A stretch of 64,000 nucleotides of DNA from positions 12,488-76,487 of the forward strand of contig JACPKU010000006.1 of the NCBI GenBank assembly GCA_016186915.1. The letters are read 5' to 3'. The notes beneath the pieces were generated by a model. The model searched no databases. It saw nothing but the letters and a program-made list of their open reading frames with translations, and was not told where the DNA came from. Numbering within the stretch: the first letter of the stretch is position 1; every line of letters begins with the position of its first letter. Below are positions 26,132 through 52,696 of this stretch, one piece after another. Position numbers and translations under genes: made by a program. The DNA is from Candidatus Doudnabacteria bacterium (GTDB lineage Bacteria > Patescibacteriota > Doudnabacteria > UBA920 > O2-02-FULL-48-8).

Positions 26132-26170
26132 TAAAAAAAGCCCGGGCGCGAGTTGTGTTACGCGTCCGGG
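26132..26170 (-). terminator. Intrinsic terminator for the purSL-purQ operon (minus strand)
   Basis: gcccgggcgcg..cgcgtccgggc stem with A7 on the plus strand giving U7 on the minus strand; marks the low-GC/high-GC boundary. Confidence 0.7.
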
Positions 26171-26202
26171 CACACTGTGTGTCCATTGATCTTTCTTGAT
26201 TC

Positions 26203-26931
26203 CTAGCGCACCGCATCCACGCCGTTGCGGAAGATGGCTAGGCCGTCATCACCTCCTCGAAGTTTGTCCACCCGGCGGTCAGGGTGGGGCATTATTCCCA
26301 TGATCAGACCTGTTGCGTCGCAGGCTGCTGCGATGTGTGAGCCGTTCGGACTGGCCGGGTACTCTTTAGTCCCTTCTTCCGTTCCGTACGTGCCGGTAAT
26401 GTGGAGCCGGTCCAAGTCGCCGACGGGTCGTCCTTCGCCGTGCGCTGTAGGGATCACGATCGGCACACCCTCCAGTCCTTTGGTCCATATGCATCGGACC
26501 TTGGGCTCGTGTAGGTATACCGTGACGTTGTACCAGTGTTCGAAGTTGGCTGACTGGTTGAAATCCAGCGCCACAGTCGGCTCTCTTGCTGGGCCTGCGC
26601 CGATGAGTCCGGCAGCGGTCAGGACCTGGAAGCCGTTGCAGATTCCCAGCATGGGAATCCTTCGTTCGAGTACACGACTCAGTTGATCGGAAAGCCGGAG
26701 TCTCAGGTCAATGGCTTGCACTCGGCCAGTGCCGAAGTGATCGCCGTGACCGAATCCGCCCGGCCAGATAATCAGATCCGCCTCATCCAGCCGGCGCCTG
26801 CCCAGGAGGCACAGCTTGAGCGGCAGGACCTCCGGTCTGGCACCGGCAAGTTCAAGGGCGCGTTGGGTTTCCAGGTGGCAGTTCGTGCCCGGAACCCAAG
26901 GGATGATCGCACGAGGCTTGTGGGTTCTCAT
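26203..26931 (-). CDS. purQ: Phosphoribosylformylglycinamidine synthase, glutaminase subunit PurQ-like (class I GATase); high-GC island
   Basis: PGTNCHLE, PGGFGHGDH, GICNGFQVL, HGEGR, NPNGS motifs; start set at MRTHKP, giving an ATGA overlap with the purL stop; local GC ~60%. Confidence 0.85.
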   Translation of the reverse strand: MRTHKPRAIIPWVPGTNCHLETQRALELAGARPEVLPLKLCLLGRRRLDEADLIIWPGGFGHGDHFGTGRVQAIDLRLRLSDQLSRVLERRIPMLGICNGFQVLTAAGLIGAGPAREPTVALDFNQSANFEHWYNVTVYLHEPKVRCIWTKGLEGVPIVIPTAHGEGRPVGDLDRLHITGTYGTEEGTKEYPASPNGSHIAAACDATGLIMGIMPHPDRRVDKLRGGDDGLAIFRNGVDAVR

Positions 26932-29786
26932 GACACTACCTCCCGGAACGTTTTTGCCCACAGCGTGCTTAGTGTTGCGATGTCGGTTGTGAACAGGCGA
27001 TCCCCCGACACGTCGATTACCTGAACGTCGGGGTTGGGCGTGACCCAGCCGATTTCGACTGCGTCGTGGCCGAGCCATTTGTAGTCATCGGTTTTGGTCG
27101 TGAACACGATGCCACACGACATCTCTCCGAAAAGCGAGAAGAGCGAGTCGAAGGGTAGGTTGAGAACAAACCCGAGCCTGGATCCGATGGCCATCTCGAA
27201 CAGTCTTCGGATTAGTCCACCCTCAACCACGGCCGAACGCGAGCCTACCACACCTTTTCGCGCCAGGCTGTGGTATTTCGAAAATCCCTTGACTGCTTGA
27301 GCGAGGTCCACGATGGGCAGTTCGTTTCCGCGTTGTCCGTAGAGATCGAACAGCACTGATCCGCCGAGGTGCTTCTGCATAAGCCCTGGGCAGAACAGAA
27401 TGATGCGTTCTCCGACGTTTCCGAACGCCTTGGGTCGTAGTAGTCGGCCATCAGCCATGCGGCCAACTGTGAGAATATCCAGTGTCAGCGGCGCGTCGAT
27501 TCGTTCTCCTGATTTCGTTACAAACGTGCCGCTTGAACTGTCTTTGCCGGTGATGATAGGAACCCCGAGTTGTTCTGATGCCGGGACATACCCTTCCTTG
27601 ACCAGCTCGATCAGGGCTCGAGCATTGGTGGGGTTGTCCAGCACCTTAGGAGTGTAGACGTTGGCACAGGCTGTGATCTGCTTTGGGTCAAACCCGGCAG
27701 CCACAAGCTTGGTGACTGCTTGCAGGAAGACAAGTCGACCCAAGCCAGCTGGCGAGACCTCGCCGTAGAACTGATTGACCGCGTTACCTACCCCAAGCGC
27801 AAATCTTTTGCCTGGAACAGGTGCGGCGGCAAACAGATCATCTGGCATGTTCTGATCTTCACCACCGAGGTAGGGGATGAATGTGTTTCCTTGGACGGTC
27901 TGGTCGAATCGGTGTGCAGCCCACGATTGGTCGGCGAGATGGAAGTGGCCGAGGTGCTGGACGACAAGGTCTATCCAGTCCTGCTCGCTTGTGGGGATTG
28001 GCGGTTGGAACGGTTTTGGCTTTGGGAGCCGATCAGCCACCTCAATGCGTGGAAGGGGACAGTCATCCGTGAGGAACTCGTATGGCAGGTCCTCTACAAT
28101 CCCTTTTTCCGAAAGGGCCGGGGTTTGGAGCCATTGACGCTGGTCGAGTTCATCGTCAAACGCCACGACGCAGCGTCCGGTGTTGGTAAACATACCGATT
28201 ACGTCTGACGGCACGTCGTATTGGTCCAGAGTGTCTAGGGCCAGATCAAGGCGGCCAGGAGGAACGGCGATAACCATCCGCTCCTGGGATTCAGATAGCC
28301 AGATTTGCCAGCAGGACAGGCCAGCTGTCTTGAGTCGCACCCAAGCCAGGTTGACCCAGATGCCGCAACTCGAACCCATCTCACCAGCAGCAGAAGCAAG
28401 TCCGGCTGCGCCGCAGTCTGTGATTGCTCGGATGCAGCCCTGGTCGCGCAGAATAGGCACTGCTTCCATGAACTTGCGCTGTTCGATTGGGGCGCCGATT
28501 TGGACATGCGCTGCGTCCACGACTGCTGTTTGGTGGGTCATGCTGTCTGAACTGACCGTGGCGCCGTGGATCCCGTCGTTGCCTGTGGGACCACCAATGA
28601 GGAAGATGAAATCCCCAGGCACAGGTGCGCCCTTTTGGGCTTTGTCCTCGGGAATGATCCCGATACTGTGCCCTAGCGCAAACCCTTTCCAGTTGCGAGG
28701 ATGCATGAGGTAGGCAGAACAGGCCATGGGGATGCCCATTGGGTTCGTATATTCGTGTGTTCCGCGGATGGCTTCTTGGATTACTCTGGCCGGGTGGAAA
28801 GCACCTTCTGGCACGTCGTTCCAGTTGGTTCTGGGATCGGTAGTGGCCATGATGGTTGTGCCGCAAACAGGCCAACCTCCGAGCCCAGTTCCGATAACGT
28901 CGCGGATCACCCCGCCGTGCTTGGTCATGATACCGCCGTAAGGGTCGCCAGCGAATGTGGGAGAGATGTGGGTCTCGCCCTTGATGATCACGGCCCAGCC
29001 GCCGAACAGCTCCATCACTCCGCCGTTGTCCACGAAACATGACAGCACCAGCGGGTGGTTGATCTTTTCGGTCGCGGCCCGAATACACGGCAGCAGCCCC
29101 AGAGCCTTGAAGGTTGTGTGGAAGCAGTGGTCAGACCAGGCCGCGGCCGGATGTTCGAGTTCGACATCAGTCAGTGCGCGTCGCAGATTTCGACTGATGT
29201 GCTGTATCGCTAGTAGTTGTGCGTCCGTGAGGTGAGTCATCTTTCGGCTCTTTGCGAGGGTTTTCAGTTCTGCTTTGTCCATGCCCGCGACTGAAAAAAA
29301 CTGGACGGGCAAAGCCTCTGCTTGAGGGATCAGGGTGTCCCATTGCGCTTCGTTGATCACCTGCACTTCTGGGTTGTACAGATGGCGTGCGGCGATTTCC
29401 CGAGCAGCGATTTCGTCCACACCGGAAAATTGATACCGGTGCGCCAAGCGAACCCAGGTAACACCTTGGACACCGACAGCCTGGAAAGCGTGGAGGGCGG
29501 TTGGCATTTCCGGGTCGGTCATTGCCCGTTTGTAAGCCACTTCGATCACTGGTCCGCGGCTTAGATCGAGACGTGAACTAGAGAACGCAGTCTCGATCAC
29601 GGGATTTGCAAAAAGAATCCCGATGCGCGCCAGGTCAGCGATGGAAAGCTCAGGGCCTTCGCAACGGATCACCACCTCAATGTTCACTGACCTGAGTGAC
29701 GGCCAGGAGGCGAGAGCCGCGGCATGCAGTCTTTTGGCGATTGGGTCGTCGACGGTCCGAGTTTTGAAGAGAGTCAAAATTGGCAT
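26928..29786 (-). CDS. purL: PurS-PurL fusion: phosphoribosylformylglycinamidine synthase synthetase subunit with N-terminal PurS-like domain; high-GC island
   Basis: N-terminal FANPVIETAF-type PurS-like module; ETHISPTFAGDPYGGIMTKHGGVIRDVIGTG matches the PurL ETHNHP..PY.GAATG.GG.IRD motif; duplicated PurM-like halves; start set at the ATG preceded by ggaga (the track start at 29798 is a TTG). Confidence 0.85.
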   Translation of the reverse strand: MPILTLFKTRTVDDPIAKRLHAAALASWPSLRSVNIEVVIRCEGPELSIADLARIGILFANPVIETAFSSSRLDLSRGPVIEVAYKRAMTDPEMPTALHAFQAVGVQGVTWVRLAHRYQFSGVDEIAAREIAARHLYNPEVQVINEAQWDTLIPQAEALPVQFFSVAGMDKAELKTLAKSRKMTHLTDAQLLAIQHISRNLRRALTDVELEHPAAAWSDHCFHTTFKALGLLPCIRAATEKINHPLVLSCFVDNGGVMELFGGWAVIIKGETHISPTFAGDPYGGIMTKHGGVIRDVIGTGLGGWPVCGTTIMATTDPRTNWNDVPEGAFHPARVIQEAIRGTHEYTNPMGIPMACSAYLMHPRNWKGFALGHSIGIIPEDKAQKGAPVPGDFIFLIGGPTGNDGIHGATVSSDSMTHQTAVVDAAHVQIGAPIEQRKFMEAVPILRDQGCIRAITDCGAAGLASAAGEMGSSCGIWVNLAWVRLKTAGLSCWQIWLSESQERMVIAVPPGRLDLALDTLDQYDVPSDVIGMFTNTGRCVVAFDDELDQRQWLQTPALSEKGIVEDLPYEFLTDDCPLPRIEVADRLPKPKPFQPPIPTSEQDWIDLVVQHLGHFHLADQSWAAHRFDQTVQGNTFIPYLGGEDQNMPDDLFAAAPVPGKRFALGVGNAVNQFYGEVSPAGLGRLVFLQAVTKLVAAGFDPKQITACANVYTPKVLDNPTNARALIELVKEGYVPASEQLGVPIITGKDSSSGTFVTKSGERIDAPLTLDILTVGRMADGRLLRPKAFGNVGERIILFCPGLMQKHLGGSVLFDLYGQRGNELPIVDLAQAVKGFSKYHSLARKGVVGSRSAVVEGGLIRRLFEMAIGSRLGFVLNLPFDSLFSLFGEMSCGIVFTTKTDDYKWLGHDAVEIGWVTPNPDVQVIDVSGDRLFTTDIATLSTLWAKTFREVVS

Positions 29787-29902
29787 CAGGTTCTCCAATA
29801 TTGAAAGAAAGATCGTTTTCCTCCTACGAACTTACAAGAACTTCAAGGACGCTCGCCCTTGACTTTCCAGTCTACCATAGTTTGATGGTTGGAGAAAATA
29901 AT

Positions 29903-29913
29903 TATGGTATAAT
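29903..29913 (+). promoter_or_regulatory. Extended -10 TATGGTATAAT promoter; the transcript is probably near-leaderless for the exonuclease gene
   Basis: -10 ends 8 nt before the ATG at 29922. Confidence 0.5.
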
Positions 29914-29921
29914 GCACGAGT

Positions 29922-30500: not shown

Positions 30501-30501
30501 C

Positions 30502-31359: not shown

Positions 31360-31418
31360 TGGCGCCTAAGTGCGGGGGTTGAAAAAAGCCTGAAAAATTG
31401 CTATTCTTTTAGTCTAAT

Positions 31419-32135: not shown

Positions 32136-32139
32136 ACTC

Positions 32140-33492: not shown

Positions 33493-33900
33493 ATGCAAGA
33501 TTGTATTTTTTGTAAAATCGTTGAAGGATCGATTCCGTCGAATAAGGTTTACGAGGACGATCAGGTCTTAGCATTTTTGGATATCCGGCCAGTGAGTAAG
33601 GGGCACACCTTAGTTATTCCCAAAAAACATTCTCAAGACTTGTTGGATACTGACGACGAGACGCTGCAGCACCTTCTACTGGCAGCCAAAAAAGTGTCCC
33701 GGGCCGTAGTAAAGGCCACGGGGGCTCAAGGCTTTAATCTCGGGGTGAACAATGGCAAAGATTCAGGTCAGGAAGTGATGCATTTGCATTTTCATATCAT
33801 TCCTCGATACGTCAATGACGGTCTAAGCCCGTGGCCGCACCGAGAAAGCGATCCCACCGCCCTTTCCGAGCTTGCAAAAAATATTAAGCAGGCGTTTTGA
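33493..33900 (+). CDS. HIT-family (histidine triad) nucleotide hydrolase
   Basis: CIFCKI..; HLHFHIIPR histidine-triad motif. Confidence 0.85.
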   Translation: MQDCIFCKIVEGSIPSNKVYEDDQVLAFLDIRPVSKGHTLVIPKKHSQDLLDTDDETLQHLLLAAKKVSRAVVKATGAQGFNLGVNNGKDSGQEVMHLHFHIIPRYVNDGLSPWPHRESDPTALSELAKNIKQAF

Positions 33901-33901
33901 T

Positions 33902-34909
33902 ATGAAATATCTCATCACCGGCGGAGCGGGATTTATTGGTTCGAATTTCATTCATTATCTTTTTAAAAAATATCCAGATTGCGAAGTGGTAAATTTGGAT
34001 TTGCTTACTTATGCGGGGAATCTGGACAATTTAAAAGACATAGAAAATAATCCCAACTATAGATTTGTAAAAGGTGATATTGGAGATTTGGATTTGGTTT
34101 CTAAACTTGTGCAAGGGATAGATATGATCGTAAATTTTGCCGCAGAATCGCATAATGATCGTGCAATCATGGACCCTGGTATATTTGTAAAAACAAACGT
34201 GCTTGGAACCCAAATCCTTTTAGAGGCTGCCAAAAGAGCAGGGAACAAAAGATTCCATCATATCTCGACTTGTGAAGTCTTTGGAGATTTAGAATTGAAT
34301 GAAGATAGGAAATTTTTGGAAACAGACAAATTTCAGCCAAAAACTCCTTATAATGCCTCAAAAGCTGCAGCAAACCATGAGGTCATGGCCTATTTTCATA
34401 CTTATAAATTACCAGTGACAATCAGCCACTGTTCGAATAATTACGGCCCGTACCAATTTCCAGAGAAATTGATTCCATTGTTTGTTACCAATGCTCTGGA
34501 AGATAAACCTCTGCCACTTTTCAAAAATAGCCATTATAAGAGGGAATGGATACACGTTGATGATCATTCATCAGCAGTTGATTTAATACTACAAAAAGGA
34601 AAAATTGGGCAGAGCTATAATATCGGCACTGGCGTTGAAAAATCGGTTGAAGAAATCACTGATTTACTTTTAAAAATCCTTAATAAACCCGTGAGTCTTA
34701 AAACTTATGTTTCTGATAGATTGCAACATGACAAAAGGTATGTTTTGGATAATACAAAGATAAAAGAAGAATTGGGGTGGGGTCCGCAAATCGATTTTCA
34801 GAAAGGAATGGAAGAAACTATACAATGGTATCAGGAAAATAAAGATTGGTGGCAACGATGTAAAAGTGGCTCTTATCAAGACTATTACAACAGTTATTAC
34901 AAAAAATAA
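33902..34909 (+). CDS. rfbB: dTDP-glucose 4,6-dehydratase
   Basis: MKYLITGGAGFIGSNF Rossmann motif, YNASKAAAN (YxxxK), RmlB-typical C-terminus. Confidence 0.9.
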   Translation: MKYLITGGAGFIGSNFIHYLFKKYPDCEVVNLDLLTYAGNLDNLKDIENNPNYRFVKGDIGDLDLVSKLVQGIDMIVNFAAESHNDRAIMDPGIFVKTNVLGTQILLEAAKRAGNKRFHHISTCEVFGDLELNEDRKFLETDKFQPKTPYNASKAAANHEVMAYFHTYKLPVTISHCSNNYGPYQFPEKLIPLFVTNALEDKPLPLFKNSHYKREWIHVDDHSSAVDLILQKGKIGQSYNIGTGVEKSVEEITDLLLKILNKPVSLKTYVSDRLQHDKRYVLDNTKIKEELGWGPQIDFQKGMEETIQWYQENKDWWQRCKSGSYQDYYNSYYKK

Positions 34910-34957: not shown

Positions 34958-35353
34958 TTGAACGATATGACAAAAATATCGAGGAAAAAACTTTCTGAAG
35001 ACAAAATGGGCTTGTTGATTGATCAACTTTGGCGTGGATTTGCCTCCCTCAAAGACAAAGACGAGGTTCATGAATTTTTACATGATTTATTATCTCGAAC
35101 TGAAATCCAGATGCTGGCTAAACGTTTAGAAGTAGTTCGACTGCTTAATGAAGGTTGGAAATACGAGGAAATTAAAAACCGGTTAAATATCAGTGAAGCG
35201 ACCATCTCGAAGATAAATAATTGGAAAGAGGCGTTTGGCCAAGGTTATCAGAAGGTTATAGAAAGACTTAAGCGAGAAAGTGAGAAGAGAAAAAGAAAAT
35301 TACCGGGATTTGTAAAGAGCAGTCGATCGGCTGCAGCAAGTATTTGGAGTTAA
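34958..35353 (+). CDS. TrpR-related YerC/YecD-family HTH regulator
   Basis: LSRTEIQMLAKRLEVVRLLNEGWKYEEIKNRLNISEATISKIN matches the YerC/YecD (TrpR-like) family pattern. Confidence 0.75.
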   Translation: MNDMTKISRKKLSEDKMGLLIDQLWRGFASLKDKDEVHEFLHDLLSRTEIQMLAKRLEVVRLLNEGWKYEEIKNRLNISEATISKINNWKEAFGQGYQKVIERLKRESEKRKRKLPGFVKSSRSAAASIWS

Positions 35354-35909: not shown

Positions 35910-36752
35910 ATGCCACAAAAGATTATAATTCTTGGAAGCAAAGGAAACCTGGGCGGAAAACTTATGGAGGTTTATGCTGACTTAAGGCCCGCTGGCTGGG
36001 ATCGAGAAGAGCTGGATGTGACGGATGAGGAGCAAGTAAAGCCCAAGCTCAAAGAATTTAAACCCGATTTAGTGATCAATTGCACTGCTTATAATGATGT
36101 GGATGGCGCAGAAGAGGATCGGGCAGTGGCAGAAGCGATAAACGGGTTGGCACCTGGCTATCTCGCTGCGGTGTGCGCGGAGATGGACGCTGTTTTTGTG
36201 CATTTTAGCACTGGCCAAGTTTTTGCCGGAGACAATAGTCAGGGGTATAATGAAGACGACGTCCCAAGCCCGCTAAACACCTATGGCAGGTCTAAGCTGA
36301 TGGGGGAGATGGAAGTTGAAAAAAACACTGAAAAATATTATTTGATTCGCACCGCCTGGCTTTATGGGGCTGGCCCGTCGTCGGGCAAGAAGAAGAGTTT
36401 TGTGGATATAATGCTCGATTTGGCGAAAAAGGACAGGCCGATAAAAGGCGTAGATGATGAGTTTGGCAACCCAACCTATAGCTTGGATTTGGCGCAAGCC
36501 GTGCGTGCGATGATAGAAGAGAAAAAGCCGTTTGGAGTTTATCACCTGGTAAACGAAGGCGTGGCTTCGCGTTTGGATTGGATGAAAGAAATATTCATAA
36601 TCAAAGAAATGGAAGTGGGGATTGTGCCAGTAAGTCGTGAGGAGTTTGCAGGCAAACGGAAAGCCAAGCGCCCGCAATACGAAGTTTTGAACAACACGAA
36701 ATTTATCAAGCTTCGGCCGTGGACCGAGGCACTGAAGGAATATTTGAAATGA
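35910..36752 (+). CDS. rfbD: dTDP-4-dehydrorhamnose reductase
   Basis: KIIILGSKGNLG, YGRSKLMGE, RmlD-typical length and order; start set at MPQKIII. Confidence 0.85.
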   Translation: MPQKIIILGSKGNLGGKLMEVYADLRPAGWDREELDVTDEEQVKPKLKEFKPDLVINCTAYNDVDGAEEDRAVAEAINGLAPGYLAAVCAEMDAVFVHFSTGQVFAGDNSQGYNEDDVPSPLNTYGRSKLMGEMEVEKNTEKYYLIRTAWLYGAGPSSGKKKSFVDIMLDLAKKDRPIKGVDDEFGNPTYSLDLAQAVRAMIEEKKPFGVYHLVNEGVASRLDWMKEIFIIKEMEVGIVPVSREEFAGKRKAKRPQYEVLNNTKFIKLRPWTEALKEYLK

Positions 36753-37483
36753 AAGGTGTGATTCTCGCAGGTGGGAAGGCTACAAGATTAAGACCCTTAA
36801 CTTTCGTTACGAACAAACACTTGTTGCCAGTCTATAACAAACCGATGATCTTTTATCCGCTTGAAGCCATGGCTAAAGCTGGGATTAAAGATGTGTTAAT
36901 GATCACAGGTCCTGATCATGCCGGGCATTTTTTAAATTTGCTTCGATCCGGAGGTGAATTTGGACTGAATCTAACATATGAGATTCAAGATGAAGCAGGG
37001 GGACTGTCTCATGCAGTAAGACTTGCAGAATCGTTTGCAGATAACCAAAAACTTCTTGTGATTTTAGGGGATAATATATTTGAGCATGATTTATCCGATG
37101 CTGTAAAAGATTTTGAAAGCCAAGACAGAGGAGCAAGAATTTTTGCTAAAGAGATGGATGAAGCAGGGCAGTATGGTGTAGTTGAGATAGACAGTGAAGG
37201 CACGGTTTTATCAATTGAAGAAAAGCCAAAAAAGCCAAAAAGTAAATTGGCCCAGACAGGAATTTATATGTATGATAATCAAGTGTTTGATTTGATAAAA
37301 GAACTTAAGCCTTCCACAAGAGGCGAGCTGGAAATTACTGATTTAAATAATTTATATTTGAAACAAGGAATCTTAAGTTGTGAAGTTATGAAAGGCTGGT
37401 GGGTTGACGCGGGAACTTCTTTTGATGAATTGCTGCGCGCCAGCAATCAAGTCGCAAAACTTACAAAACAAAAAGATAAATAA
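36749..37483 (+). CDS. rfbA: Glucose-1-phosphate thymidylyltransferase-like sugar nucleotidyltransferase
   Basis: MKGVILAGGKATRLRPLT..; ATGA overlap with the rmlD stop. Confidence 0.85.
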   Translation: MKGVILAGGKATRLRPLTFVTNKHLLPVYNKPMIFYPLEAMAKAGIKDVLMITGPDHAGHFLNLLRSGGEFGLNLTYEIQDEAGGLSHAVRLAESFADNQKLLVILGDNIFEHDLSDAVKDFESQDRGARIFAKEMDEAGQYGVVEIDSEGTVLSIEEKPKKPKSKLAQTGIYMYDNQVFDLIKELKPSTRGELEITDLNNLYLKQGILSCEVMKGWWVDAGTSFDELLRASNQVAKLTKQKDK

Positions 37484-41103: not shown

Positions 41104-41202
41104 CCTTGACAATGGTGTTGACAATTGGCAAGATTTTTGCTAGCATTGTCAGTTAATAACTAAGCATTAATTAACATAAGCATTAATTAACACATTCAAT
41201 AT

Positions 41203-44200
41203 ATGAATTTCATAGCTGCCAGAAAAAATAGATATTTTATTAAAAGCAAAACCGCTAAGTTTGTCGGTTTGGGCTTCGTGTTGGCTCTAACCGTTTCTTT
41301 TATTGGATTTTCACTGGCTAACCACAACAGCGGCACTGGAATCCCGGTGGACACTGGCTGGATTGACGCTTCTAGATTTGTTGGAAGCGTGGAGTTTGAT
41401 TGTGGCCAGACCGTGGGTTCAGTCTGGGGGCAAAGAGGTGACCAATTCACGATTCCAGGACATGTTTTAAATATTCCGGAAGGTTCATATACGATTGATA
41501 TCCGCGCTCATTATGGGTTTTATGAAGCAGACCCACAAGCGCCGCAAACCAATGAAACTATGAGAGTAAGCACCTCTGTTGCTTCCAGACAAATCCCTGA
41601 TTTGAATGGCCATGGCGGATCTAGACCTGACAGAGACAACTGTGATCAGATCAACGCTAATTTTAGAATTTACACCAACATTACCCGCAGTCCGATTAAC
41701 TACCAGGACGGTGGGATTAGATTTGCCGGCTTAACCTCAGATTCGCAGAGTATCAGCATTCAGGCGGTGCGGGTGCATGGCACTTCAACTCCTCCGCCCC
41801 CGCCTCCGCCGCAGCCGTGCGTGCCAGTGGGTTTGATTATGCCGCAAAGCGGGCAGGTATTTGGGGCCAATGAGACCAACCCTGCTTTCCAGTGGCAGGG
41901 GACCAACCGGACCTTCTATATCCTGGACATTACCGAGGATCCGAACTTTTCTTGGTGGTGGAATAATGGCAGTGGCGCTGGCGGCGGTATTCAAATTACT
42001 TCTGCTAATTTTTCGGACGTCACCAATACTTTCTACTCCCAAGGGCACCCCGCTCCGGGATTGGCTCAAGCCGGCAAAACTTATTACTGGCGAGTGTTTG
42101 CTTACAATACGGACGATCCGGGCGCTGGCTGTCACTCAGTCGTGAGGTCGTTCTCTTTGCAATCAACTCCGCCGCCGCCCCCGCCTCCTCCTCAAAAAGC
42201 CCAAATTACCTTAGTCAAAGAAGTGATCAACAACAACGGTGGCAACAAGCAGCCCTCAGATTTCGCCTTACATATCGCGGGGCACACGTTAACCAGTGGC
42301 CAATCTGTCGAACTTAACCCCGGCAATTATCAAGCTACGGAAACTCAGCAAGCCGGTTATGCCTTGTTAGGTTGGCGAGGCGCTTGTGATGGTAGCGGTA
42401 GCGTAACCTTGCAAGCCGGTCAGAACGTGACTTGTGTAGTAACCAATGATGACCAAGCCCAGCCTACTGTTTCGTTGTCTTTAGTGAAAAATGTGCGAAA
42501 CGTGACCCAAGGGCAAACCACATTTGTAGATTCAGTTTCCGCCCAGCCAAACGAACAGGTAGAGTTCAGAATCCAAGTGGCGGCTTCTGGCAACACCAGC
42601 GCCCAAAACGTCGTGGTGACTGATACTCTGCCAAATAACTTTAATCTTAGTTCCGGTAGTTTAACCAACAATCTAGGCAACATGTCAGCCGGCAGCACTC
42701 AAATCATAACCTTGAGCGCTACTGCTGCCTCGGCCTTTAACTTCCCAATCGGTTCGTCCACTTGGATCAATACCGCTACAGCTACCGCCTCTAACGCCAA
42801 CACGGTTTCAGACACTGCTCACGTGGTAGTTAACCGCCAAATTACCGGTACCCCCAGCCTGACCATTGACAAAACTGTCCGAAACGTCACAGCCGGCCAA
42901 GCAATATTTAGCAATTCTGTATCAGCCAACCCGCAAGATCAAGTGGAATTCAAAGTTGTTGTGAGCAACGTCGGACAGGCCACAGCCAACAATGTGGTGG
43001 TGACTGATACTCTGCCAAATAACTTTAATCTTAGTTCTGGCAGTTTAACCAACAATCTAGGCAACATGTCAGCCGGCAGCACTCAAATCATAACCTTGAG
43101 CGCCACTGCTGCCTCTGCCTCTAACTTCCCCATCGGTTCGTCCACTTGGACCAATACTGCTACGGCTACCGCTTCTAATACCAATACGGTTTCTGATACC
43201 GCCAATGTGATTGTAGAAAGAGACGGACCACCTGGCGATGCTCAACTAAGTATCACCAAAGAAGTCAGAAACGTTACTCAAGGAGTAGCTTTCTTTTCTA
43301 AATCCGCATCAGCTCAGCCAAACGAACAAGTCGAGTTTAGAATCCGCGTTCGATCAACTGGTCAAACTACAGCCAACAATGTGAACCTGACTGATATTTT
43401 GCCAAATAACTTTGTATTGAACTTTGCCCAGACGGGCGCAGGAGTCAGCGGCTCCAACACCCAGTTTAGTTTGGGCAATATGCCGACGAACACTGAAAGA
43501 ACTCTGTCCTTGTTTGTGACTGCGGCTTCAGCCGCCAATTTCCCAATCGGCACCAGCACTCACACCAACACAGCCACTGCCACAGCCTCTAACGCCAATT
43601 CCGTCTCTGACAATGCTTCAGTCGTGATTAACCGGGACGGCGGAGGCAATGGCAACCCATTCTTAGCAATCACGAAAGAAGTAAGAAATCTCACTGACAA
43701 CACGGGCTATTCTCATTCAGTAACCGCGGATGACAGCGATCGCGTAGAGTTTAGAATTGTTGTGCGAAACACCGGCAGCTCAAACTCTACTGCTACCAAC
43801 GTTCGCGTGACGGATTTCTTGCCGGCCAACCTGGAATTTGTTGCCAGTACGTTAAGGATTGACAGCAACACGCAGTTTAGCAATAACCTGCTTGGCAATA
43901 TTTTCTTAGGCAATCTGTCTGCGAATCAGAGCAAAACTATTACCTTTGAAGCAAGGGTAAATGCCAACTTCAACAATACGCTGATAAACACTGCCACTGC
44001 TTTCTCGGACAACACCTCGCCAGTCAATGACAGCGCCAGCGTGTTCGTCTCGCGCGTGGTTGGCGGAAATATTGATCTGGTCTTGAGCAAGTCCGCGTAT
44101 AACTTAACTCAAGGACGGGACGCTACCGCGGTAACCGCGCGTGCAGGCGATCAGATTGAATACATTTTGCGCGTAGAAAATCGCGGCAACGCCACTGCCA

Positions 44201-44583
44201 CCAACTTCGTCATTGAGGACAGCATTGCGGACATTCTGGAACTGGCTGACCTGCTTAGCTATTCTGGCGCCACATTTGACTCAAGCGCTCGGGTACTTCG
44301 ATGGCCGTCTGAAAATATTGGGGCCGGGCAAACTGTAGAGAAAAGATTCTCTGTCCGGGTAAAAAGCCCTGTTCCTGGCGGCACTGATCTGGTTATGACT
44401 AATGTCTACGGCAACACGGTCAGAGTACCGGTTGGCACCCCGCCTTCTGTTCCTCCTCCCGTGTATCCTCCGTACAAAGCTCCGCCCACCGGCCCTGCCA
44501 CCACTTTCAGTTTGATCTTGGCTGGCTTGACTGTCGCGGGAGCGTTCGGGATTAAAAAAATTAAGCAAGCCTCGAGAGCATGA
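41203..44583 (+). CDS. Large cell-surface protein: N-terminal TM, two fibronectin/Ig-like modules separated by polyPro linkers, about 6 DUF11 repeat domains, C-terminal sorting-signal-like tail
   Basis: Repeated L(S/T)(L/I)xK.VRNVTQG..F..SVSAQPNEQVEFRI.V...G...A.NV.VTD.LP modules (DUF11 pattern); C-terminal KAPPTGPATT + hydrophobic + KKIKQASRA. Confidence 0.8.
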   Translation: MNFIAARKNRYFIKSKTAKFVGLGFVLALTVSFIGFSLANHNSGTGIPVDTGWIDASRFVGSVEFDCGQTVGSVWGQRGDQFTIPGHVLNIPEGSYTIDIRAHYGFYEADPQAPQTNETMRVSTSVASRQIPDLNGHGGSRPDRDNCDQINANFRIYTNITRSPINYQDGGIRFAGLTSDSQSISIQAVRVHGTSTPPPPPPPQPCVPVGLIMPQSGQVFGANETNPAFQWQGTNRTFYILDITEDPNFSWWWNNGSGAGGGIQITSANFSDVTNTFYSQGHPAPGLAQAGKTYYWRVFAYNTDDPGAGCHSVVRSFSLQSTPPPPPPPPQKAQITLVKEVINNNGGNKQPSDFALHIAGHTLTSGQSVELNPGNYQATETQQAGYALLGWRGACDGSGSVTLQAGQNVTCVVTNDDQAQPTVSLSLVKNVRNVTQGQTTFVDSVSAQPNEQVEFRIQVAASGNTSAQNVVVTDTLPNNFNLSSGSLTNNLGNMSAGSTQIITLSATAASAFNFPIGSSTWINTATATASNANTVSDTAHVVVNRQITGTPSLTIDKTVRNVTAGQAIFSNSVSANPQDQVEFKVVVSNVGQATANNVVVTDTLPNNFNLSSGSLTNNLGNMSAGSTQIITLSATAASASNFPIGSSTWTNTATATASNTNTVSDTANVIVERDGPPGDAQLSITKEVRNVTQGVAFFSKSASAQPNEQVEFRIRVRSTGQTTANNVNLTDILPNNFVLNFAQTGAGVSGSNTQFSLGNMPTNTERTLSLFVTAASAANFPIGTSTHTNTATATASNANSVSDNASVVINRDGGGNGNPFLAITKEVRNLTDNTGYSHSVTADDSDRVEFRIVVRNTGSSNSTATNVRVTDFLPANLEFVASTLRIDSNTQFSNNLLGNIFLGNLSANQSKTITFEARVNANFNNTLINTATAFSDNTSPVNDSASVFVSRVVGGNIDLVLSKSAYNLTQGRDATAVTARAGDQIEYILRVENRGNATATNFVIEDSIADILELADLLSYSGATFDSSARVLRWPSENIGAGQTVEKRFSVRVKSPVPGGTDLVMTNVYGNTVRVPVGTPPSVPPPVYPPYKAPPTGPATTFSLILAGLTVAGAFGIKKIKQASRA
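42607..43215 (+). repeat. Intragenic ~200-bp near-identical (~90%) tandem duplication inside the DUF11 gene
   Basis: gtggtgactgatactctgccaaataactttaatcttagtt..caacatgtcagccggcagcactcaaatcataaccttgagcgc occurs at ~42613 and ~42997. Confidence 0.8.
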
Positions 44584-46455: not shown

Positions 46456-46482
46456 CGCACAGCTTGGAGCGAAGGAGGAACA

Positions 46483-46752
46483 ATGCAGCCCGGAGCGTTT
46501 AAAAAGGCCCGGTTGATGATCGCGTTCATGCAGCGGGAGACAGGTCGTGTTTGGGGCAGAAGGACCGACCTGGCAGAAGAGTTGGGAGACTATGAGGCAA
46601 AATTCGGCGAACCACCCTGGGCAGAGGAATTTCGCGCTGACATTGACCGCCGAGGCTGGATGCCCAGACCTTCGTCACCCGTGTTCGTGAACGATTTAGA
46701 GACAGAAACGGAAGAGCTTGTTCGGAAGATGCTCGCGGAGGATGGAAACTAG
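46483..46752 (+). CDS. Hypothetical 89-aa protein in a ~330-bp high-GC mini-cassette
   Basis: Strong SD gaaggagg-N5-ATG; GC ~56% versus ~40% flanks; own terminator follows. Confidence 0.4.
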   Translation: MQPGAFKKARLMIAFMQRETGRVWGRRTDLAEELGDYEAKFGEPPWAEEFRADIDRRGWMPRPSSPVFVNDLETETEELVRKMLAEDGN

Positions 46753-46765
46753 CCGGGTCGGTCGC

Positions 46766-46798
46766 TAGCCGCGGATTTTCCCTGTTCGCGGTTTTTTT
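46766..46798 (+). terminator. Terminator-like hairpin ccgcg-gattttccctgtt-cgcgg followed by T7
   Basis: Read directly from the sequence. Confidence 0.55.
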
Positions 46799-46810
46799 AT
46801 TTTTAATATT

Positions 46811-46821: not shown

Positions 46822-46934
46822 TCGAACACTGTGATTTCTGAACTGAAATAAACTCCCTGATTATTATAGGAAATTAACACAGAGTAACAATCTAAGTATT
46901 GGCGCGTCTTGTTTTTTGTCAACCAAACACAGAA

Positions 46935-50652: not shown

Positions 50653-50678
50653 ACAGAGAACGAGAATCAAACGTAACA

Positions 50679-50692
50679 TTCACGATCGTGAA
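50679..50692. promoter_or_regulatory. Perfect 14-bp palindrome TTCACGATCGTGAA (copy 1) 15 nt upstream of the PaaX-like gene
   Basis: Extended 27-nt match ttcacgatcgtgaaaaag(g/a)cgttag shared with copy 2 at 51324-51350. Confidence 0.7.
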
Positions 50693-50706
50693 AAAGGCGT
50701 TAGATC

Positions 50707-51267
50707 ATGAAAGCGAGCACAAAAAGGAAAATCAAAAAGAAAAGCCTCCAGCTCACCAAACAAATATTGGTAACTTTAGCAACAGCTCCGAAAGCTCTTT
50801 TTGATATTTTTATAGATAGCAGTCCTTATACCAGACGTTTGTTTGCTGACCGTGAAATTACTCGGAGTCAATTGCAACGCGCAATACAGGATTTAAAAAG
50901 GCAGCGCTTAATTAAGATGAGGGAATATAAGCAAAAACTGATTTATGAGCTAACTGACCTGGGAAGAGCGCAAATGCTTCGGTGGAATTACAAATTTCGC
51001 CCTAAGCAAGAGAGACGAGATGGCTTAGGCACCATCGTGATATTTGACATCCCTGAAACTAAACGGCAGGCGCGTGATTTCTTGCGGCGTTTTTTAAAAG
51101 AGAATCAATTCACTCAGTTGCAGAAAAGTGTGTTTATTGGACGGTTTTGGCTACTGGCAGAGTTTTATGATTTATTGACTGAACTTCGAATAGTAGAACA
51201 TGTATCAGTGTTGGAAGGACGAATTCCACATACGACTGCTAATAATCGTTTTAGAAACCGTTCCTAA
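50707..51267 (+). CDS. PaaX-like small transcriptional regulator (winged-helix N-terminal domain + Cas2-fold middle domain)
   Basis: LIYELTDLGRAQMLRW (wHTH) followed by GTIVIFDIPETKRQARDFLRRFLKENQFTQLQKSVFIG (Cas2-like beta-alpha-beta pattern seen in the PaaX central domain). Confidence 0.55.
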   Translation: MKASTKRKIKKKSLQLTKQILVTLATAPKALFDIFIDSSPYTRRLFADREITRSQLQRAIQDLKRQRLIKMREYKQKLIYELTDLGRAQMLRWNYKFRPKQERRDGLGTIVIFDIPETKRQARDFLRRFLKENQFTQLQKSVFIGRFWLLAEFYDLLTELRIVEHVSVLEGRIPHTTANNRFRNRS

Positions 51268-51317
51268 ATTATTAATTGTGGTGTAATGGTAAATAACCGT
51301 AAACTTAATTTTCTAGC

Positions 51318-51350
51318 GTATAATTCACGATCGTGAAAAAGACGTTAGGG
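51318..51350 (+). promoter_or_regulatory. -10 box TATAAT fused to palindrome TTCACGATCGTGAA (copy 2): repressor-type operator overlapping the promoter of the purM-like gene
   Basis: tagcgTATAATTCACGATCGTGAAaaagacgttag read directly. Confidence 0.65.
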
Positions 51351-51463
51351 AGGGAAGCAAGAAAAACTGCATTTGCATAAGGTCTTCAGTATTGATATTC
51401 TGATATATCAAGTCAGGACTTGAAGTTTTGGTGTTTCGTGGACAATTCAGAGGGGAGGATTCT

Positions 51464-52615
51464 ATGCGTCAGAGCGAGTATGCTCAAGCCGGAGTCGATT
51501 ACACGCAGATCCAAGGGTTCAAGGACGCAATGGTCGAAGTGGGGAAGAAAACTCTGGCTTTCCCAAATCGGCGAGGCGTCTACGTCGAGCAAGACGTCAT
51601 GCACAGCCACGGGGTGGTTTACTACTACCACGGGCCGGCGAGGACTCATCGTTGGGCGAAGACCCAGGAAGGCCTTGGCAACAAGAACTGGATCGCCGAA
51701 TGGATGTACCAGTTCAGTGGAACGGGTCGGACCTACTACGAAGGTATCGGGATCGACACTGCCCGCATGGCAGTCAACGACAACATCGCTCAGGGCGCGA
51801 TGCCTGCCGTGTACACCGACGAGGTCGCGGCCGGTCCAAGCAGTTGGTTTTCAGACCGGCGTCGAGCGGCGGATTTGGCGAACGGGTTCTTTCGTGCATG
51901 TGAAGAGGATGGGATGGCTCTCGGAGCAGGCGAATCGCCAGCGCTCAAGTACCTCATCAACGCGCTGCCGCCGGTTACCAGTGCACCGTCCCTGAGTGGG
52001 TCGGTTACGGGGATCATTGCGCCAGCAAGTCGGCTGATCACCGGCAAGAAGCTGCGAGCTGGGGACAAGATCATCGGCGTGCCTTCGAGCGGTCTTCAGG
52101 CGAACGGAATTTCGCTCGTGATCCGTCGAACCATGGGCGACCCGTCAGCCGGCATCCCTCCATTGAAGGACGGGTTCCTCACCAAGTTGCCGAACGGCAA
52201 CACTCTTGGAGAGGAAGCGTTGATCCCGACGCGGTCATACGTGGCGTTCGTTGAAGCGCTTCAGGAAGCTGATGTGGAGATTCACGCACTACTTCCTGGG
52301 ACAGGGGATGGCGTCGCGAAGCTGGCGTTCGACAAGCGTCCGTTCACTTACCGCGTACACACCTGGACGCCGAACATTCCGCTTTTGTTCTTGTTCATGC
52401 GGGAGTTGGGCGTTTCCCTGGAAGATTGTCTCAAGACTTTCAACTGGGGGATCGGCCTCTACGCGTTCGTGCCGCCTAACGAAGTTGACCATGTGATCCA
52501 GATCGGGAGGGACATAGGGGACGAGGTCCTGGAGGTCGGGGTGGTCGAGCAGGGTGAACGCATGACCATCTTCGGGCCAGCGAACGATCTTAAGCTCCCA
52601 CCCCCAGGGGAGTAG
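51464..52615 (+). CDS. purM: Phosphoribosylformylglycinamidine cyclo-ligase (AIR synthetase) PurM homologue with a ~45-aa insertion; high-GC island
   Basis: EYAQAGVDY (PurM SYKDAGVDI), GIGIDTARMAVNDNIAQGAMP, PSSGLQANGISLVIRR (PurM GSSGPHSNGYSLVRK), ALIPTRSYV (LLAPTRIYV), KTFNWGIGLYAFVP; SD ggggagg-N6-ATG; GC ~60%. Confidence 0.8.
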   Translation: MRQSEYAQAGVDYTQIQGFKDAMVEVGKKTLAFPNRRGVYVEQDVMHSHGVVYYYHGPARTHRWAKTQEGLGNKNWIAEWMYQFSGTGRTYYEGIGIDTARMAVNDNIAQGAMPAVYTDEVAAGPSSWFSDRRRAADLANGFFRACEEDGMALGAGESPALKYLINALPPVTSAPSLSGSVTGIIAPASRLITGKKLRAGDKIIGVPSSGLQANGISLVIRRTMGDPSAGIPPLKDGFLTKLPNGNTLGEEALIPTRSYVAFVEALQEADVEIHALLPGTGDGVAKLAFDKRPFTYRVHTWTPNIPLLFLFMRELGVSLEDCLKTFNWGIGLYAFVPPNEVDHVIQIGRDIGDEVLEVGVVEQGERMTIFGPANDLKLPPPGE

Positions 52616-52641
52616 CGGGGATGCTATTGTCCGGATCTGTT

Positions 52642-52679
52642 GCCGCTTTCGTGAGGGAATGAAAGCGGCTTATTTTTTT
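52642..52679 (+). terminator. Intrinsic terminator gccgctttc..gaaagcggc followed by a T-run
   Basis: 9-bp stem then ttattttttt; marks the end of the high-GC island. Confidence 0.75.
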
Positions 52680-52696
52680 GCTATAATGGGATTACC

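What the first reader, a model, noticed from the sequence alone, without database searches (positions are those of the whole stretch)
26132..52690. Three separate high-GC inserts in 64 kb, two of them carrying consecutive purine-biosynthesis steps
Taken together, island 1 (purS-purL, purQ), the ~330-bp cassette at 46470-46800 (89-aa hypothetical with a perfect SD) and island 2 (purM) are the only GC-rich segments in the window. Each is bounded by terminators and AT-rich native promoters. A scattered, piecemeal gain of FGAR-to-FGAM-to-AIR enzymes is an unusual pattern. If the organism is an episymbiont, it may be acquiring host-derived nucleotide-metabolism genes.
Basis: inference. Interest (0 to 1): 0.6.

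Follow-up and report, generated by a model that had tools for sequence, protein, structure and literature searches.

The report
Laterally acquired purine genes, CPR genome
Two short GC-rich stretches in this Candidatus Doudnabacteria genome carry intact genes for two consecutive purine-synthesis steps, most likely acquired from other, GC-richer CPR bacteria rather than from a host; the third GC-rich stretch is an unrelated, old, lineage-specific small gene.

Summary
In a 45.5% GC window from a Ca. Doudnabacteria MAG, purQ, a purS-purL fusion, purM and an 89-aa ORF are the four most GC3-rich of 62 ORFs (z +2.8 to +4.3). Independent assemblies span all junctions, so this is not a chimera.

- **Pur genes:** they are intact. 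The PurL catalytic histidines and the PurQ cysteine are present, and purSL and purQ overlap by ATGA. They are divergent CPR-type enzymes that score below the NCBIfam equivalog cut-offs.
- **Donor:** the nearest relatives are all Patescibacteria (PurSL 50-56%, PurM 77-78% identity), not a plausible host. Related genomes hold these genes in real pur operons.
- **Shared foreign signature:** both islands share one dinucleotide and codon signature that is foreign to the genome. In 55 of 59 other genomes PurM matches its host's GC, so the high GC is not intrinsic to the family. One GC-richer CPR donor type is likely. One versus two events is unresolved.
- **89-aa ORF:** it is an orphan gene, conserved in synteny and GC-rich in a diverged relative. 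It is not a recent insert and has no link to purines.

No mobility genes, tRNA or flanking repeats were found. Whether the rest of the pathway exists in this genome could not be tested. This is an ordinary kind of event with some open oddities.

The parts
26928..29786 (-). purSL: fusion of an N-terminal PurS-like domain, linker and FGAM-synthetase (PurL) domain, 952 aa. Start ATG at 29786, preceded by GGAGAA.
   Evidence: Pfam AIRS_C, AIRS, FGAR-AT_linker, and PurS just below cut-off. NCBIfam PurL and large-PurL models align over residues 88-953 but score 292 against a cut-off of 648. PDB best hits are PurL chains. Equivalents of T. maritima His32 and His72 are conserved (H220, H273). The protein keeps all ~150 invariant columns of 35 clade members. 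GC .571, GC3 .634.
26203..26931 (-). purQ: glutaminase subunit, 242 aa. Its ATG overlaps the purSL stop codon (ATGA), which indicates translational coupling.
   Evidence: Pfam GATase_5. Best PDB match is T. maritima PurQ 3D54_D. The nucleophile motif GICNGFQ is present. The triad motif reads HPD instead of HPE. GC .609, GC3 .675.
26130..26170 (-). Intrinsic-terminator hairpin plus U7, directly after purQ and before the AspRS gene.
   Evidence: Fold of window:26118-26205:- gives GCCCGG.CGCG...CGCG.CCGGGC followed by UUUUUUU.
29787..29921 (.). AT-rich divergent spacer between purSL (-) and the exonuclease gene (+). It holds a promoter-like site for purSL.
   Evidence: TTAACA-16-CATAAT on the - strand at 29928-29901. 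GC .37-.41. No Rfam match even at E<=1.
51464..52615 (+). purM: AIR synthetase of the 'KNWIAEW' subtype, 383 aa, with Shine-Dalgarno sequence GGGGAGGA.
   Evidence: Pfam AIRS + AIRS_C. TIGR00878 aligns end to end at 134.5 bits, against a cut-off of 236. All PDB hits are PurM. It keeps all 90+ invariant columns of 35 family members. The same subtype is the only PurM in the complete operon of L013. GC .591, GC3 .708.
51312..51348 (+). Native promoter/operator in front of purM: TATAAT (51319-51324) overlapped by the perfect palindrome TTCACGATCGTGAA (51324-51337).
   Evidence: A 37-nt repeat, 86% identical to 50667-50703. The palindrome occurs exactly twice in the window, against 0.19 expected at <=2 mismatches. 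GC .31-.37, i.e. native composition. No Rfam match.
50667..51267 (+). First copy of the operator (palindrome at 50679-50692) plus the PaaX_M/Cas2-like regulator gene 50707-51267. Native. Inferred regulator of itself and of purM.
   Evidence: Pfam PaaX_M. Repeat. The relative L088 has a different but equivalently placed palindrome pair around its ortholog.
52642..52680 (+). Intrinsic terminator after purM.
   Evidence: 11-bp stem plus T-run.
46483..46752 (+). 89-aa orphan ORF with Shine-Dalgarno sequence AAGGAGG. GC-rich, but old, syntenic and unrelated to the pur genes. Terminator at 46767-46793.
   Evidence: Only one other cluster is known (P0362, 48-55% identity by method). It lies on L088 in the same order: Epimerase - ORF - S8 - h558 - PaaX_M. 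The substitution pattern is codon-like, with pN .35 < pS .83. GC3 is .62 here and .60 in L088. No Pfam, NCBIfam or Rfam hit. AF2 model pLDDT 56, four helices.
52697..54220 (+). DHA2/EmrB-type MFS efflux gene next to purM. It is NOT part of the island (native codon usage).
   Evidence: TIGR00711 277 bits. RSCU r = .64 to native genes and about 0 to the pur genes. delta* 94 to background.

Best explanation
The window comes from a Candidatus Doudnabacteria (CPR/Patescibacteria) genome of about 45% GC. It carries two small, gene-sized islets of foreign composition. Islet 1 is purSL-purQ: FGAM synthetase in a split 'large-PurL' layout, with the PurS-like domain, linker and synthetase in one chain and the glutaminase in a second, translationally coupled chain. 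Islet 2 is purM alone (AIR synthetase).

Both were most likely acquired laterally from a GC-richer (roughly 55-60% GC) member of the CPR, not from a host. The acquisition was either one purSL-purQ-purM cluster later split by rearrangement, or two events from similar donors. Both islets now sit behind native AT-rich promoters. purM sits behind a promoter overlapped by the operator-like palindrome of the neighbouring PaaX-like regulator.

Inferred mechanism: PurQ hydrolyses glutamine. PurSL uses the ammonia and ATP to convert FGAR to FGAM. PurM uses ATP to close the ring to AIR.

Shown: composition, gene integrity, conserved catalytic residues, the affiliations of the homologues, operon contexts in relatives, and the reality of the junctions.
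Inferred: enzymatic activity, direction and timing of transfer, and regulation by the PaaX-like protein.

The 89-aa GC-rich ORF is a separate, lineage-specific protein gene of unknown role that predates the split from the nearest sampled relative.
For: Composition:
- The pur genes are the top three of 62 ORFs in GC3 (z +3.0 to +4.3).
- Dinucleotide distance to the genome is 159 and 165, against native maxima of 106 and 172 (95th percentile 122). The two islets are only 61 from each other.
- RSCU r is about 0 to native genes.39-.68 among the pur genes, and .24-.62 to pur genes of other CPR.
- GC at codon positions 1+2 of purM (.534) is also shifted, compared with PurM genes native to low-GC genomes (.486). 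GC3 lies on the family-wide GC12/GC3 line (residual z -0.8), so there is little amelioration.
- The amino-acid GARP/FYMINK ratio of PurM is at the 96th percentile of 120 homologues.

High GC is not intrinsic to the family:
- In 59 other loci the PurM GC3 z-score has a median of +0.2. Only 4 loci exceed +2.
- The gene ranges from GC3 .25 to .98, tracking its host.

Donor type:
- The best PurSL hits are Patescibacteria and Doudnabacteria at 50-56% identity. The best PurM hits are at 77-78%.
- GC-matched hosts of this PurSL type exist: L184 at 56% GC, L183 at 66%, L085 at 51%.
- L001 is among the closest relatives for both PurM (77%) and PurSL (53%), and has the genes adjacent.

Mobility:
- The four members of the window's PurM clade sit in four different contexts. 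One is inserted between secY and adk.
- L087 has a purSL-purQ-purM trio at GC .55-.565 inside a .40-.45 background.
- None of 80 AspRS relatives has pur genes beside AspRS.

Function:
- Domains and PDB matches.
- His32 and His72 equivalents are conserved, as are the invariant columns.
- Relatives hold these genes in pur operons: L013 complete, L085 with seven genes, L001 with purD and purN.

Not an artefact: independent assemblies span all junctions.
Against: - No donor is close. The best PurSL hit is 56% identical, so the donor lineage is unsampled, or the transfer is old and the composition has been kept.
- Synonymous sites are near saturation among the four PurM clade members (pS .67-.74), yet all four are GC-rich in low-GC hosts.
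- The neighbouring 89-aa ORF shows that GC-rich codons can persist in this lineage through saturated divergence without recent transfer.
- In the GC-rich Patescibacteria locus L183, purSL-purQ lies 0.6 kb from an S11-ScpB-ScpA-YbaK-AspRS block (S11 peptidase gene, then ScpB). This is the same neighbourhood as in the window and could mean old linkage.
- No integrase, transposase, tRNA or flanking direct repeat marks either islet.
- All three proteins score below the NCBIfam equivalog cut-offs. PurQ has Asp in place of the triad Glu.
- The first three and last five steps of the pathway were not found in the window. A search seeded with the PurD of L001 returned no protein of this MAG in its top 120 hits. 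A substrate supply for the enzymes is therefore not demonstrated.
Confidence: 0.65

Rival explanations
1. The pur genes were inherited vertically within this CPR lineage. Their GC-rich composition is actively maintained by gene-specific selection on codons or mRNA, or by a local mutational or repair bias. It is not a relic of transfer.
For: The 89-aa ORF keeps GC3 at about .6 in two genomes whose synonymous sites are saturated. So maintained GC-richness does occur here. The PurM clade members are about 22% diverged with pS .67-.74, and all are GC-rich in low-GC hosts. The purSL-purQ linkage to the ScpAB-YbaK-AspRS block also occurs in L183.
Against: In 55 of 59 other genomes PurM composition equals host composition, including low-GC CPR (L031, L038, L074, L076, L079). 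The four clade members lie in four unrelated contexts, one of which interrupts the secY-adk junction. Non-synonymous positions and the dinucleotide signature are also foreign. Highly expressed native genes (L10, L7/L12) are not GC3-rich. The other Doudnabacteria (L085) has a different PurM type, only 34% identical.
Confidence: 0.15
2. The islets are host-derived. An episymbiont captured nucleotide-metabolism genes from its non-CPR bacterial host.
For: GC-rich composition in a low-GC episymbiont-type genome. There is a precedent for transfer from other bacteria into Doudnabacteria: the cyo operon (PMC8407418). The KNWIAEW PurM subtype also exists in Aminicenantes/Acidobacteriota and others at 62-66% identity.
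Against: Every named hit among the closest homologues is Patescibacteria/CPR, apart from one 4-kb contig labelled Anaerolinea. In the PurM tree the window gene is nested among CPR sequences, and the non-CPR sequences form a separate clade. The PurSL type occurs in composition-matched CPR genomes (L183, L184, L085).
Confidence: 0.03
3. purSL-purQ-purM is a self-sufficient module that works without the rest of the de novo pathway. It might convert an imported or host-supplied formylglycinamide-type intermediate to AIR, or act on another amide substrate. It would circulate among CPR genomes as a cassette.
For: No other pur gene lies within +/-10 kb of the trio in L087 or L184, of the pair in L002 or L183, or in this 64-kb window. 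The L001 PurD-seeded search returned no protein of this MAG. CPR commonly lack complete nucleotide synthesis (PMC8407418). All three proteins are divergent from the canonical equivalogs.
Against: The same gene types sit in multi-step pur operons in L001, L013 and L085. The catalytic residues of canonical FGAR-AT are kept. Complete IMP synthesis is reported for several CPR classes (PMC9166423). No transporter for such intermediates is known (my knowledge).
Confidence: 0.12
4. Assembly or binning chimera: GC-rich fragments of another organism were joined into a Doudnabacteria contig.
For: Sharp GC steps at the gene borders, in a MAG-derived sequence.
Against: Contigs from at least five separate sequencing runs, assembled independently, cross every junction with identical gene order (L096-L098, L179-L182, L090-L095). 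The spacers carry native promoter and operator sequence.
Confidence: 0.01

Closest known systems
FGAM synthetase complex: small PurL + PurQ + PurS (Thermotoga maritima 3D54, Bacillus subtilis), and single-chain large PurL (Salmonella 1T3T)
   Same: Same domains and order as large PurL: PurS-like N-domain, linker, duplicated PurM-fold synthetase, then glutaminase. The catalytic His32 and His72 equivalents and the PurQ Cys nucleophile are kept. Best PDB matches are PurL and PurQ.
   Different: It is split between the synthetase and the glutaminase rather than between PurS and PurL. This is the 'PurSL' layout that JGI annotation already names. It scores at less than half of the equivalog cut-offs. 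The motif reads ETHISP instead of ESHNHP. PurQ has HPD instead of HPE.
PurM, AIR synthetase (E. coli 1CLI; 9JZY series)
   Same: AIRS + AIRS_C fold, with an end-to-end alignment to TIGR00878. It is the only PurM in complete pur operons of relatives.
   Different: A distinct, very conserved subtype: 62-69% identity across CPR, Aminicenantes, Aerophobetes and others. Its motif is QEGLGNKNWIAEW in place of DGVGTK. It scores 134 bits against a cut-off of 236 and is usually annotated 'AIR synthase-related' or 'hypothetical'.
Compositionally atypical, laterally acquired metabolic genes (the Lawrence-Ochman type of evidence), for example the cyo operon acquired by Doudnabacteria (PMC8407418)
   Same: A sharp GC, codon and dinucleotide anomaly confined to the genes. 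Patchy distribution and variable context among relatives (for the precedent).
   Different: The donor appears to be another CPR bacterium, not a non-CPR bacterium. The islets are single genes or gene pairs with no mobility genes, att-like repeats or tRNA.
Purine operons of other CPR: L013 (purL-Q-F-N-D-gmk-E-C-B-M, purH) and Doudnabacteria L085 (purH-B-M-SL-Q-E-C)
   Same: The same gene families. L085 shares the PurSL type (53% identity).
   Different: In the window only steps 4 and 5 are present, at two sites 21.7 kb apart. The PurM subtype differs from that of L085 (34% identity).

Membership tests
FGAM synthetase, PurL/PurSL subunit | PurM-superfamily AIRS and AIRS_C domains plus the FGAR-AT linker | tested here: met
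   Pfam AIRS_C 98.9 bits, AIRS 34.5, FGAR-AT_linker 31.0, all above the gathering scores.
FGAM synthetase, PurL/PurSL subunit | Catalytic histidines (T. maritima His32 in SEHC, His72 in ESHNHP). The role of these residues is recalled from the literature; the H72A mutant chain 2HRU is visible in the alignment. | tested here: met
   The window has WSDHC (H220) and GETHISP (H273), aligned to H32 and H72 of 2HS0. Both are invariant in 35 clade members.
FGAM synthetase, PurL/PurSL subunit | Reaches the curated equivalog score (NCBIfam NF002290 / TIGR01736) | tested here: not met
   292 and 288 bits, against cut-offs of 648 and 526. It is a divergent clade, so orthology rests on context and residues.
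FGAM synthetase, PurL/PurSL subunit | PurS module present (free or fused) | tested here: inconclusive
   Pfam PurS scores 20.5 bits, against a gathering score of 22.2, at residues 85-146. The large-PurL model aligns from its position 75. JGI names homologues 'PurSL'.
FGAM synthetase, PurQ glutaminase subunit | Class-I amidotransferase fold with a Cys-His-Glu triad, encoded next to purL | tested here: inconclusive
   GATase_5 at 131.9 bits. GICNGFQ cysteine and HP histidine are present. The acid residue is Asp (HPD), whereas 4 relatives and T. maritima have Glu. The gene has an ATGA overlap with purSL. It scores below the equivalog cut-off (126 against 178).
PurM (AIR synthetase) | AIRS + AIRS_C domains and a full-length alignment to PurM | tested here: met
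   Pfam 28.7 and 33.2 bits, above the gathering scores. TIGR00878 aligned 2-331 of 332. All 19 PDB hits are PurM.
PurM (AIR synthetase) | Reaches the TIGR00878 equivalog cut-off | tested here: not met
   134.5 bits, against a cut-off of 236.35.
PurM (AIR synthetase) | Occupies the PurM slot of a complete pur operon in relatives | tested here: met
   L013: purL-purQ-purF-purN-purD-gmk-purE-purC-purB-[this subtype]-purH, with no other PurM. L001 has it directly after purQ.
FGAM synthetase / PurM | Catalytic activity on FGAR / FGAM | not testable with these tools
   Needs complementation or an enzyme assay.
Classical genomic island / mobile element | Integrase or transposase, tRNA or att-type flanking repeats | tested here: not met
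   The only tRNA is tRNA-Glu at 18723-18797. No flanking direct or inverted repeats beyond chance. The neighbouring genes are housekeeping genes.
Laterally acquired gene (compositional criterion) | Codon, GC and dinucleotide signature outside the native distribution, and not a property of the gene family | tested here: met
   for the window. for the family-wide control.
Host-derived gene of an episymbiont | Closest homologues in a non-CPR lineage | tested here: not met
   The closest hits and tree neighbours are CPR.

The most novel reading that the evidence does not exclude
purSL-purQ-purM is a portable, GC-rich 'FGAR-to-AIR' cassette that moves among CPR genomes. It has been seen as a trio island in L087, as a trio in L184, split in this window, and as PurM(+PurS) dropped between secY and adk in L089. 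In the novel reading it functions in genomes that lack the remaining eight steps. That would imply an unrecognised supply of a formylglycinamide-type precursor from the host, or a new use of AIR. A related reading is that some force keeps certain genes GC-rich in these low-GC genomes over saturated divergence, as the 89-aa ORF shows.
Probability: 0.12. Interest if true: 0.6.

Novelty: new member of a known kind. Interest (0 to 1): 0.3.

Why it matters
If the reading is right, this is one more documented case that CPR bacteria exchange core biosynthetic genes among themselves. It also shows that gene-sized compositional islets can flag such events in MAGs without being assembly artefacts.

It has two practical consequences.
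1. The CPR-type PurSL, PurQ and the 'KNWIAEW' PurM fall below the curated equivalog thresholds and are deposited as 'hypothetical' or 'AIR synthase-related'. Pathway-completeness surveys that conclude CPR lack purine synthesis may therefore under-count these steps.
2. Stand-alone FGAR-to-AIR modules recur in several CPR genomes. This gives a concrete, testable question about what these episymbionts import from their hosts.

Tried and rejected
- **Structured RNA instead of the 89-aa ORF.** Rfam gave no hit. The alignment with L088 shows a codon-like substitution pattern, 3-nt indels and pN < pS. Rejected.
- **Riboswitch or leader upstream of purSL or purM.** No Rfam match at E<=1.
- **Phage vector.** The PurM profile found no relative in IMG/VR.
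- **Empty-site test for island 1.** I used 80 JGI loci holding AspRS relatives. The downstream synteny (YbaK-ScpA-ScpB) is kept in some, but the upstream synteny is lost, because the relatives are too distant (at most 67% identity). The result is only a weak negative: none has pur genes there.
- **Empty-site hint for island 2.** The L088 contig ends 171 nt after PaaX_M. Its last 58 nt resemble the start of the window's flippase gene at 55330 (60% identity, ATGTTGCA) more than the purM leader. This is too short to count.
- **Search for the rest of the pathway in this MAG.** I used the PurD of L001 as bait. No HYW51 protein appeared in the top 120 hits. This is inconclusive.
- **MFS efflux gene as part of island 2.** Rejected on codon usage.
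- **h189 proteins next to PurM in L083 and L089 as a linked new component.** They are not homologous to each other.
- **Structure of the 89-aa protein.** pLDDT 56, which is too low for a fold search.
- **Literature.** I found no paper describing this pattern. I found only general statements on CPR nucleotide auxotrophy and on complete IMP synthesis in some classes.

Full report
**Origin of the window**

The PurM-like and PurSL-like proteins are identical to HYW51_01760 and HYW51_01645 of a 'Candidatus Doudnabacteria bacterium' MAG. They lie on a 420,227-bp contig. The 89-aa ORF is HYW51_01740. The surrounding genes are typical CPR housekeeping and envelope genes:
- AspRS, YbaK, ScpA/ScpB, an exonuclease, Lgt and HtrA
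- rhamnose-synthesis genes
- a sortase with a large DUF11 surface protein
- an S8 peptidase and a PaaX_M/Cas2-like regulator
- an MFS efflux pump, an M23 peptidase and a flippase

**Observation**

Window GC is 0.455. Among 62 ORFs, the four with the highest GC3 are:

| ORF | GC3 | z |
|---|---|---|
| purM | .708 | +4.3 |
| purQ | .675 | +3.7 |
| purSL | .634 | +3.0 |
| 89-aa ORF | .622 | +2.8 |

The other 58 ORFs average GC3 .463 +/- .057. The GC steps coincide with the gene borders.

The Karlin dinucleotide distance of island 1 to the rest of the window is 159, against a mean of 52 and a maximum of 106 for native chunks of equal size. For purM it is 165, against a mean of 76 and a 95th percentile of 122. 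Synonymous codon usage of the pur genes is uncorrelated with native genes (r about 0).

Terminator hairpins with T-runs follow purQ, the 89-aa ORF and purM. Two large surface-protein genes and the MFS gene reach GC .50-.52, but with native codon usage.

Contigs assembled independently from at least five sequencing runs cross every junction. The islets are therefore not an assembly chimera.

**What the genes are**

*purSL.* The 952-aa protein has AIRS, AIRS_C and FGAR-AT-linker domains and a marginal PurS match. It aligns to the large-PurL model from that model's position 75 up to the start of the glutaminase domain. The glutaminase is supplied by the next gene, purQ, whose ATG overlaps the purSL stop codon. 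This is the 'PurSL + PurQ' layout already named in JGI annotations. The equivalents of the T. maritima catalytic His32 and His72 are present and invariant in the clade.

*purQ.* It has the GICNGFQ cysteine, but HPD where relatives have HPE.

*purM.* It aligns end to end with TIGR00878 and with solved PurM structures.

All three score well below the NCBIfam equivalog cut-offs: 292 against 648, 126 against 178, and 134 against 236. Their assignment therefore rests on domains, residues and context.

The context evidence is good:
- L013 has a complete operon purL-purQ-purF-purN-purD-gmk-purE-purC-purB-purM with purH, and this PurM subtype is its only PurM.
- L001 has purD and purN next to purSL-purQ-purM.
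- Another Doudnabacteria (L085) has purH-purB-purM-purSL-purQ-purE-purC.

No riboswitch or other Rfam family lies in or before the islets.

**Where they came from**

*Closest homologues.* The closest PurSL homologues (50-56% identity) are Patescibacteria and Doudnabacteria MAGs. The closest PurM homologues (77-78%) are four metagenomic sequences.

*Distribution of the PurM subtype.* A scan of one genome per GTDB species shows that this PurM subtype (motif KNWIAEW) occurs in many CPR groups. It also occurs in Aminicenantes/Acidobacteriota, Aerophobetes and others, at 62-69% identity. In a neighbour-joining tree the window sequence groups with L001, L083 and L089. Berkelbacteria is sister to this group, all inside the CPR part of the tree. 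The non-CPR sequences form their own clade.

*Family-wide GC control.* Across that family, the gene's GC tracks its host from GC3 .25 to .98. In 59 loci with enough background, the PurM GC3 z-score has a median of +0.2, and only four loci exceed +2. High GC is therefore not a family property, and the window is a true outlier.

*Depth of the shift.* The shift also affects non-synonymous positions (GC12 .534 against .486 for low-GC natives). It shows little amelioration. It is visible in amino-acid composition too.

*Shared signature.* Islands 1 and 2 resemble each other (delta* 61). They also resemble the pur genes of L083, L089, L085 and L001 (67-99), but not their own genome.

*Possible donor pool.* Composition-matched hosts of this PurSL type exist among GC-richer Patescibacteria: L184 at 56%, L183 at 66% and L085 at about 51% GC.

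*Signs of mobility.* The four members of the window's PurM clade occupy four unrelated contexts. One is inserted between secY and adk of the ribosomal-protein operon. L087 shows a purSL-purQ-purM trio as a GC .55-.565 island in a .40-.45 background.

*Conclusion.* Together this supports lateral acquisition from a GC-richer CPR donor type, not from a host. Whether there was one event or two is open. L001 carries both gene types adjacent and is among the nearest relatives for both. The other Doudnabacteria, however, has a different PurM type (34% identity).

**Caveats**

- No near-identical donor exists in 5.8 billion proteins.
- Synonymous sites among the PurM clade members are near saturation (pS .67-.74), yet all of them are GC-rich in low-GC hosts.
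- No mobility genes, tRNA or flanking repeats mark the islets.
- In L183, purSL-purQ lies 0.6 kb from an S11-ScpB-ScpA-YbaK-AspRS block (S11 peptidase gene, then ScpB), the same neighbourhood as in the window. None of 80 closer AspRS relatives shows this.

I therefore keep a 0.15 rival of vertical descent with maintained composition.

**The third segment**

The 89-aa ORF is not part of the same story.
- It has only one other cluster among 1.8 billion representatives.
- That homologue lies in the same gene order (Epimerase - ORF - S8 - h558 - PaaX_M) on L088. L088 comes from a relative whose flanking orthologues are 64-84% identical and whose synonymous sites are saturated.
- The substitution pattern is that of a coding sequence: 3-nt indels and pN .35 < pS .83.
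- It is GC-rich in both genomes: GC3 .62 and .60, against neighbours at about .46 here and .32-.44 in L088.

It is thus an old, lineage-specific small protein. The AF2 model is of low confidence and shows four helices. Its persistent GC-richness is unexplained.

**Regulatory detail**

A 37-nt repeat containing the perfect palindrome TTCACGATCGTGAA occurs twice. One copy lies in front of the PaaX_M/Cas2-like regulator gene. The other lies in front of purM, where it overlaps a TATAAT box. L088 has a different palindrome pair at the equivalent positions. This suggests an operator that co-evolves with the regulator. I infer that purM is read from, and possibly controlled by, native signals.

**Pathway completeness**

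No other pur gene lies in the window. A search seeded with the PurD of L001 returned no protein of this MAG. Stand-alone purSL-purQ(-purM) modules recur in L002, L087, L183 and L184.

The literature reports both general nucleotide auxotrophy in CPR and complete IMP synthesis in some classes (PMC8407418; PMC9166423). The 'module without a pathway' reading remains possible but untested.

**Verdict**

The compositional observation is real and statistically strong. The underlying event is of an ordinary kind: lateral gain of known enzymes, here from within the CPR. The host-donor idea and the inclusion of the 89-aa ORF are not supported.

Noticed in passing
window 50667-50703 and 51312-51348 (palindrome at 50679-50692 and 51324-51337); L088 7374-7400 and 7975-8005: A 37-nt repeat with the perfect palindrome TTCACGATCGTGAA flanks the PaaX_M/Cas2-like regulator gene. 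The relative L088 has a different palindrome (GCGCGRCCGCGCG) at the equivalent two positions, as if operator and regulator co-evolved. Two-mismatch copies lie at 24962 and at 29938; the latter is 152 nt upstream of the purSL start.
   Followed up: partly
window 46483-46752; L088 3070-3318: The orphan 89-aa gene keeps GC3 at about .6 in two genomes whose synonymous sites are saturated and whose neighbouring genes have GC3 .32-.47. No explanation was found.
   Followed up: partly
L089 2914-5098: PurM, a 189-aa ORF and PurS are inserted between secY and adk of the ribosomal-protein operon of another CPR genome. PurM has GC .588, against flanks of .45-.52.
   Followed up: partly
L087 10001-14915; L184 8687-13572: purSL-purQ-purM (or purM-purSL-purQ) trios stand alone, with no other pur gene within 10 kb. 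In L087 the trio is a GC island (.55-.565 against .40-.45). In L184 it matches the host.
   Followed up: partly
L183 10001-18694: In a 66% GC Patescibacteria genome, purSL-purQ lies 0.6 kb from an S11-ScpB-ScpA-YbaK-AspRS block (S11 peptidase gene, then ScpB). This is the same neighbourhood as in the window, but at the opposite end of the block.
   Followed up: partly
window 33872-34909, 34958-35353, 36719-37483: Low-GC outliers: an rmlB-like gene, a Trp-repressor-like gene and an rmlA-like gene, with GC3 .31-.36 (z down to -2.7). They lie within the rhamnose-synthesis cluster and may be a separate acquisition from a low-GC donor.
   Followed up: no
window 26203-26931: PurQ has His-Pro-Asp where four relatives and T. 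maritima PurQ have the His-Pro-Glu triad motif.
   Followed up: partly
window 51464-52615 and loci L003-L082: The 'KNWIAEW' PurM subtype is 62-69% identical across CPR, Aminicenantes, Aerophobetes and others. It scores below the TIGR00878 cut-off and is mostly deposited as 'hypothetical' or 'AIR synthase-related'. This is an annotation gap that can make purine pathways look incomplete.
   Followed up: partly
window 23740-24108 and 60654-60959: A 23S-rRNA-intervening-sequence/bAvd-like four-helix protein gene sits between YbaK and ScpA, and there is a GIY-YIG gene. Both are low-GC small genes of the kind often associated with mobile or selfish elements.
   Followed up: no
window 40015-44583 and 7230-10232: A sortase gene is followed by a 1126-aa DUF11/SpaA-like surface protein. 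Separately, a 1000-aa protein combines a GH5-like domain with a C-terminal T4SS-pilin-like domain. Both large genes are mildly GC-rich (.50-.52) but have native codon usage.
   Followed up: no
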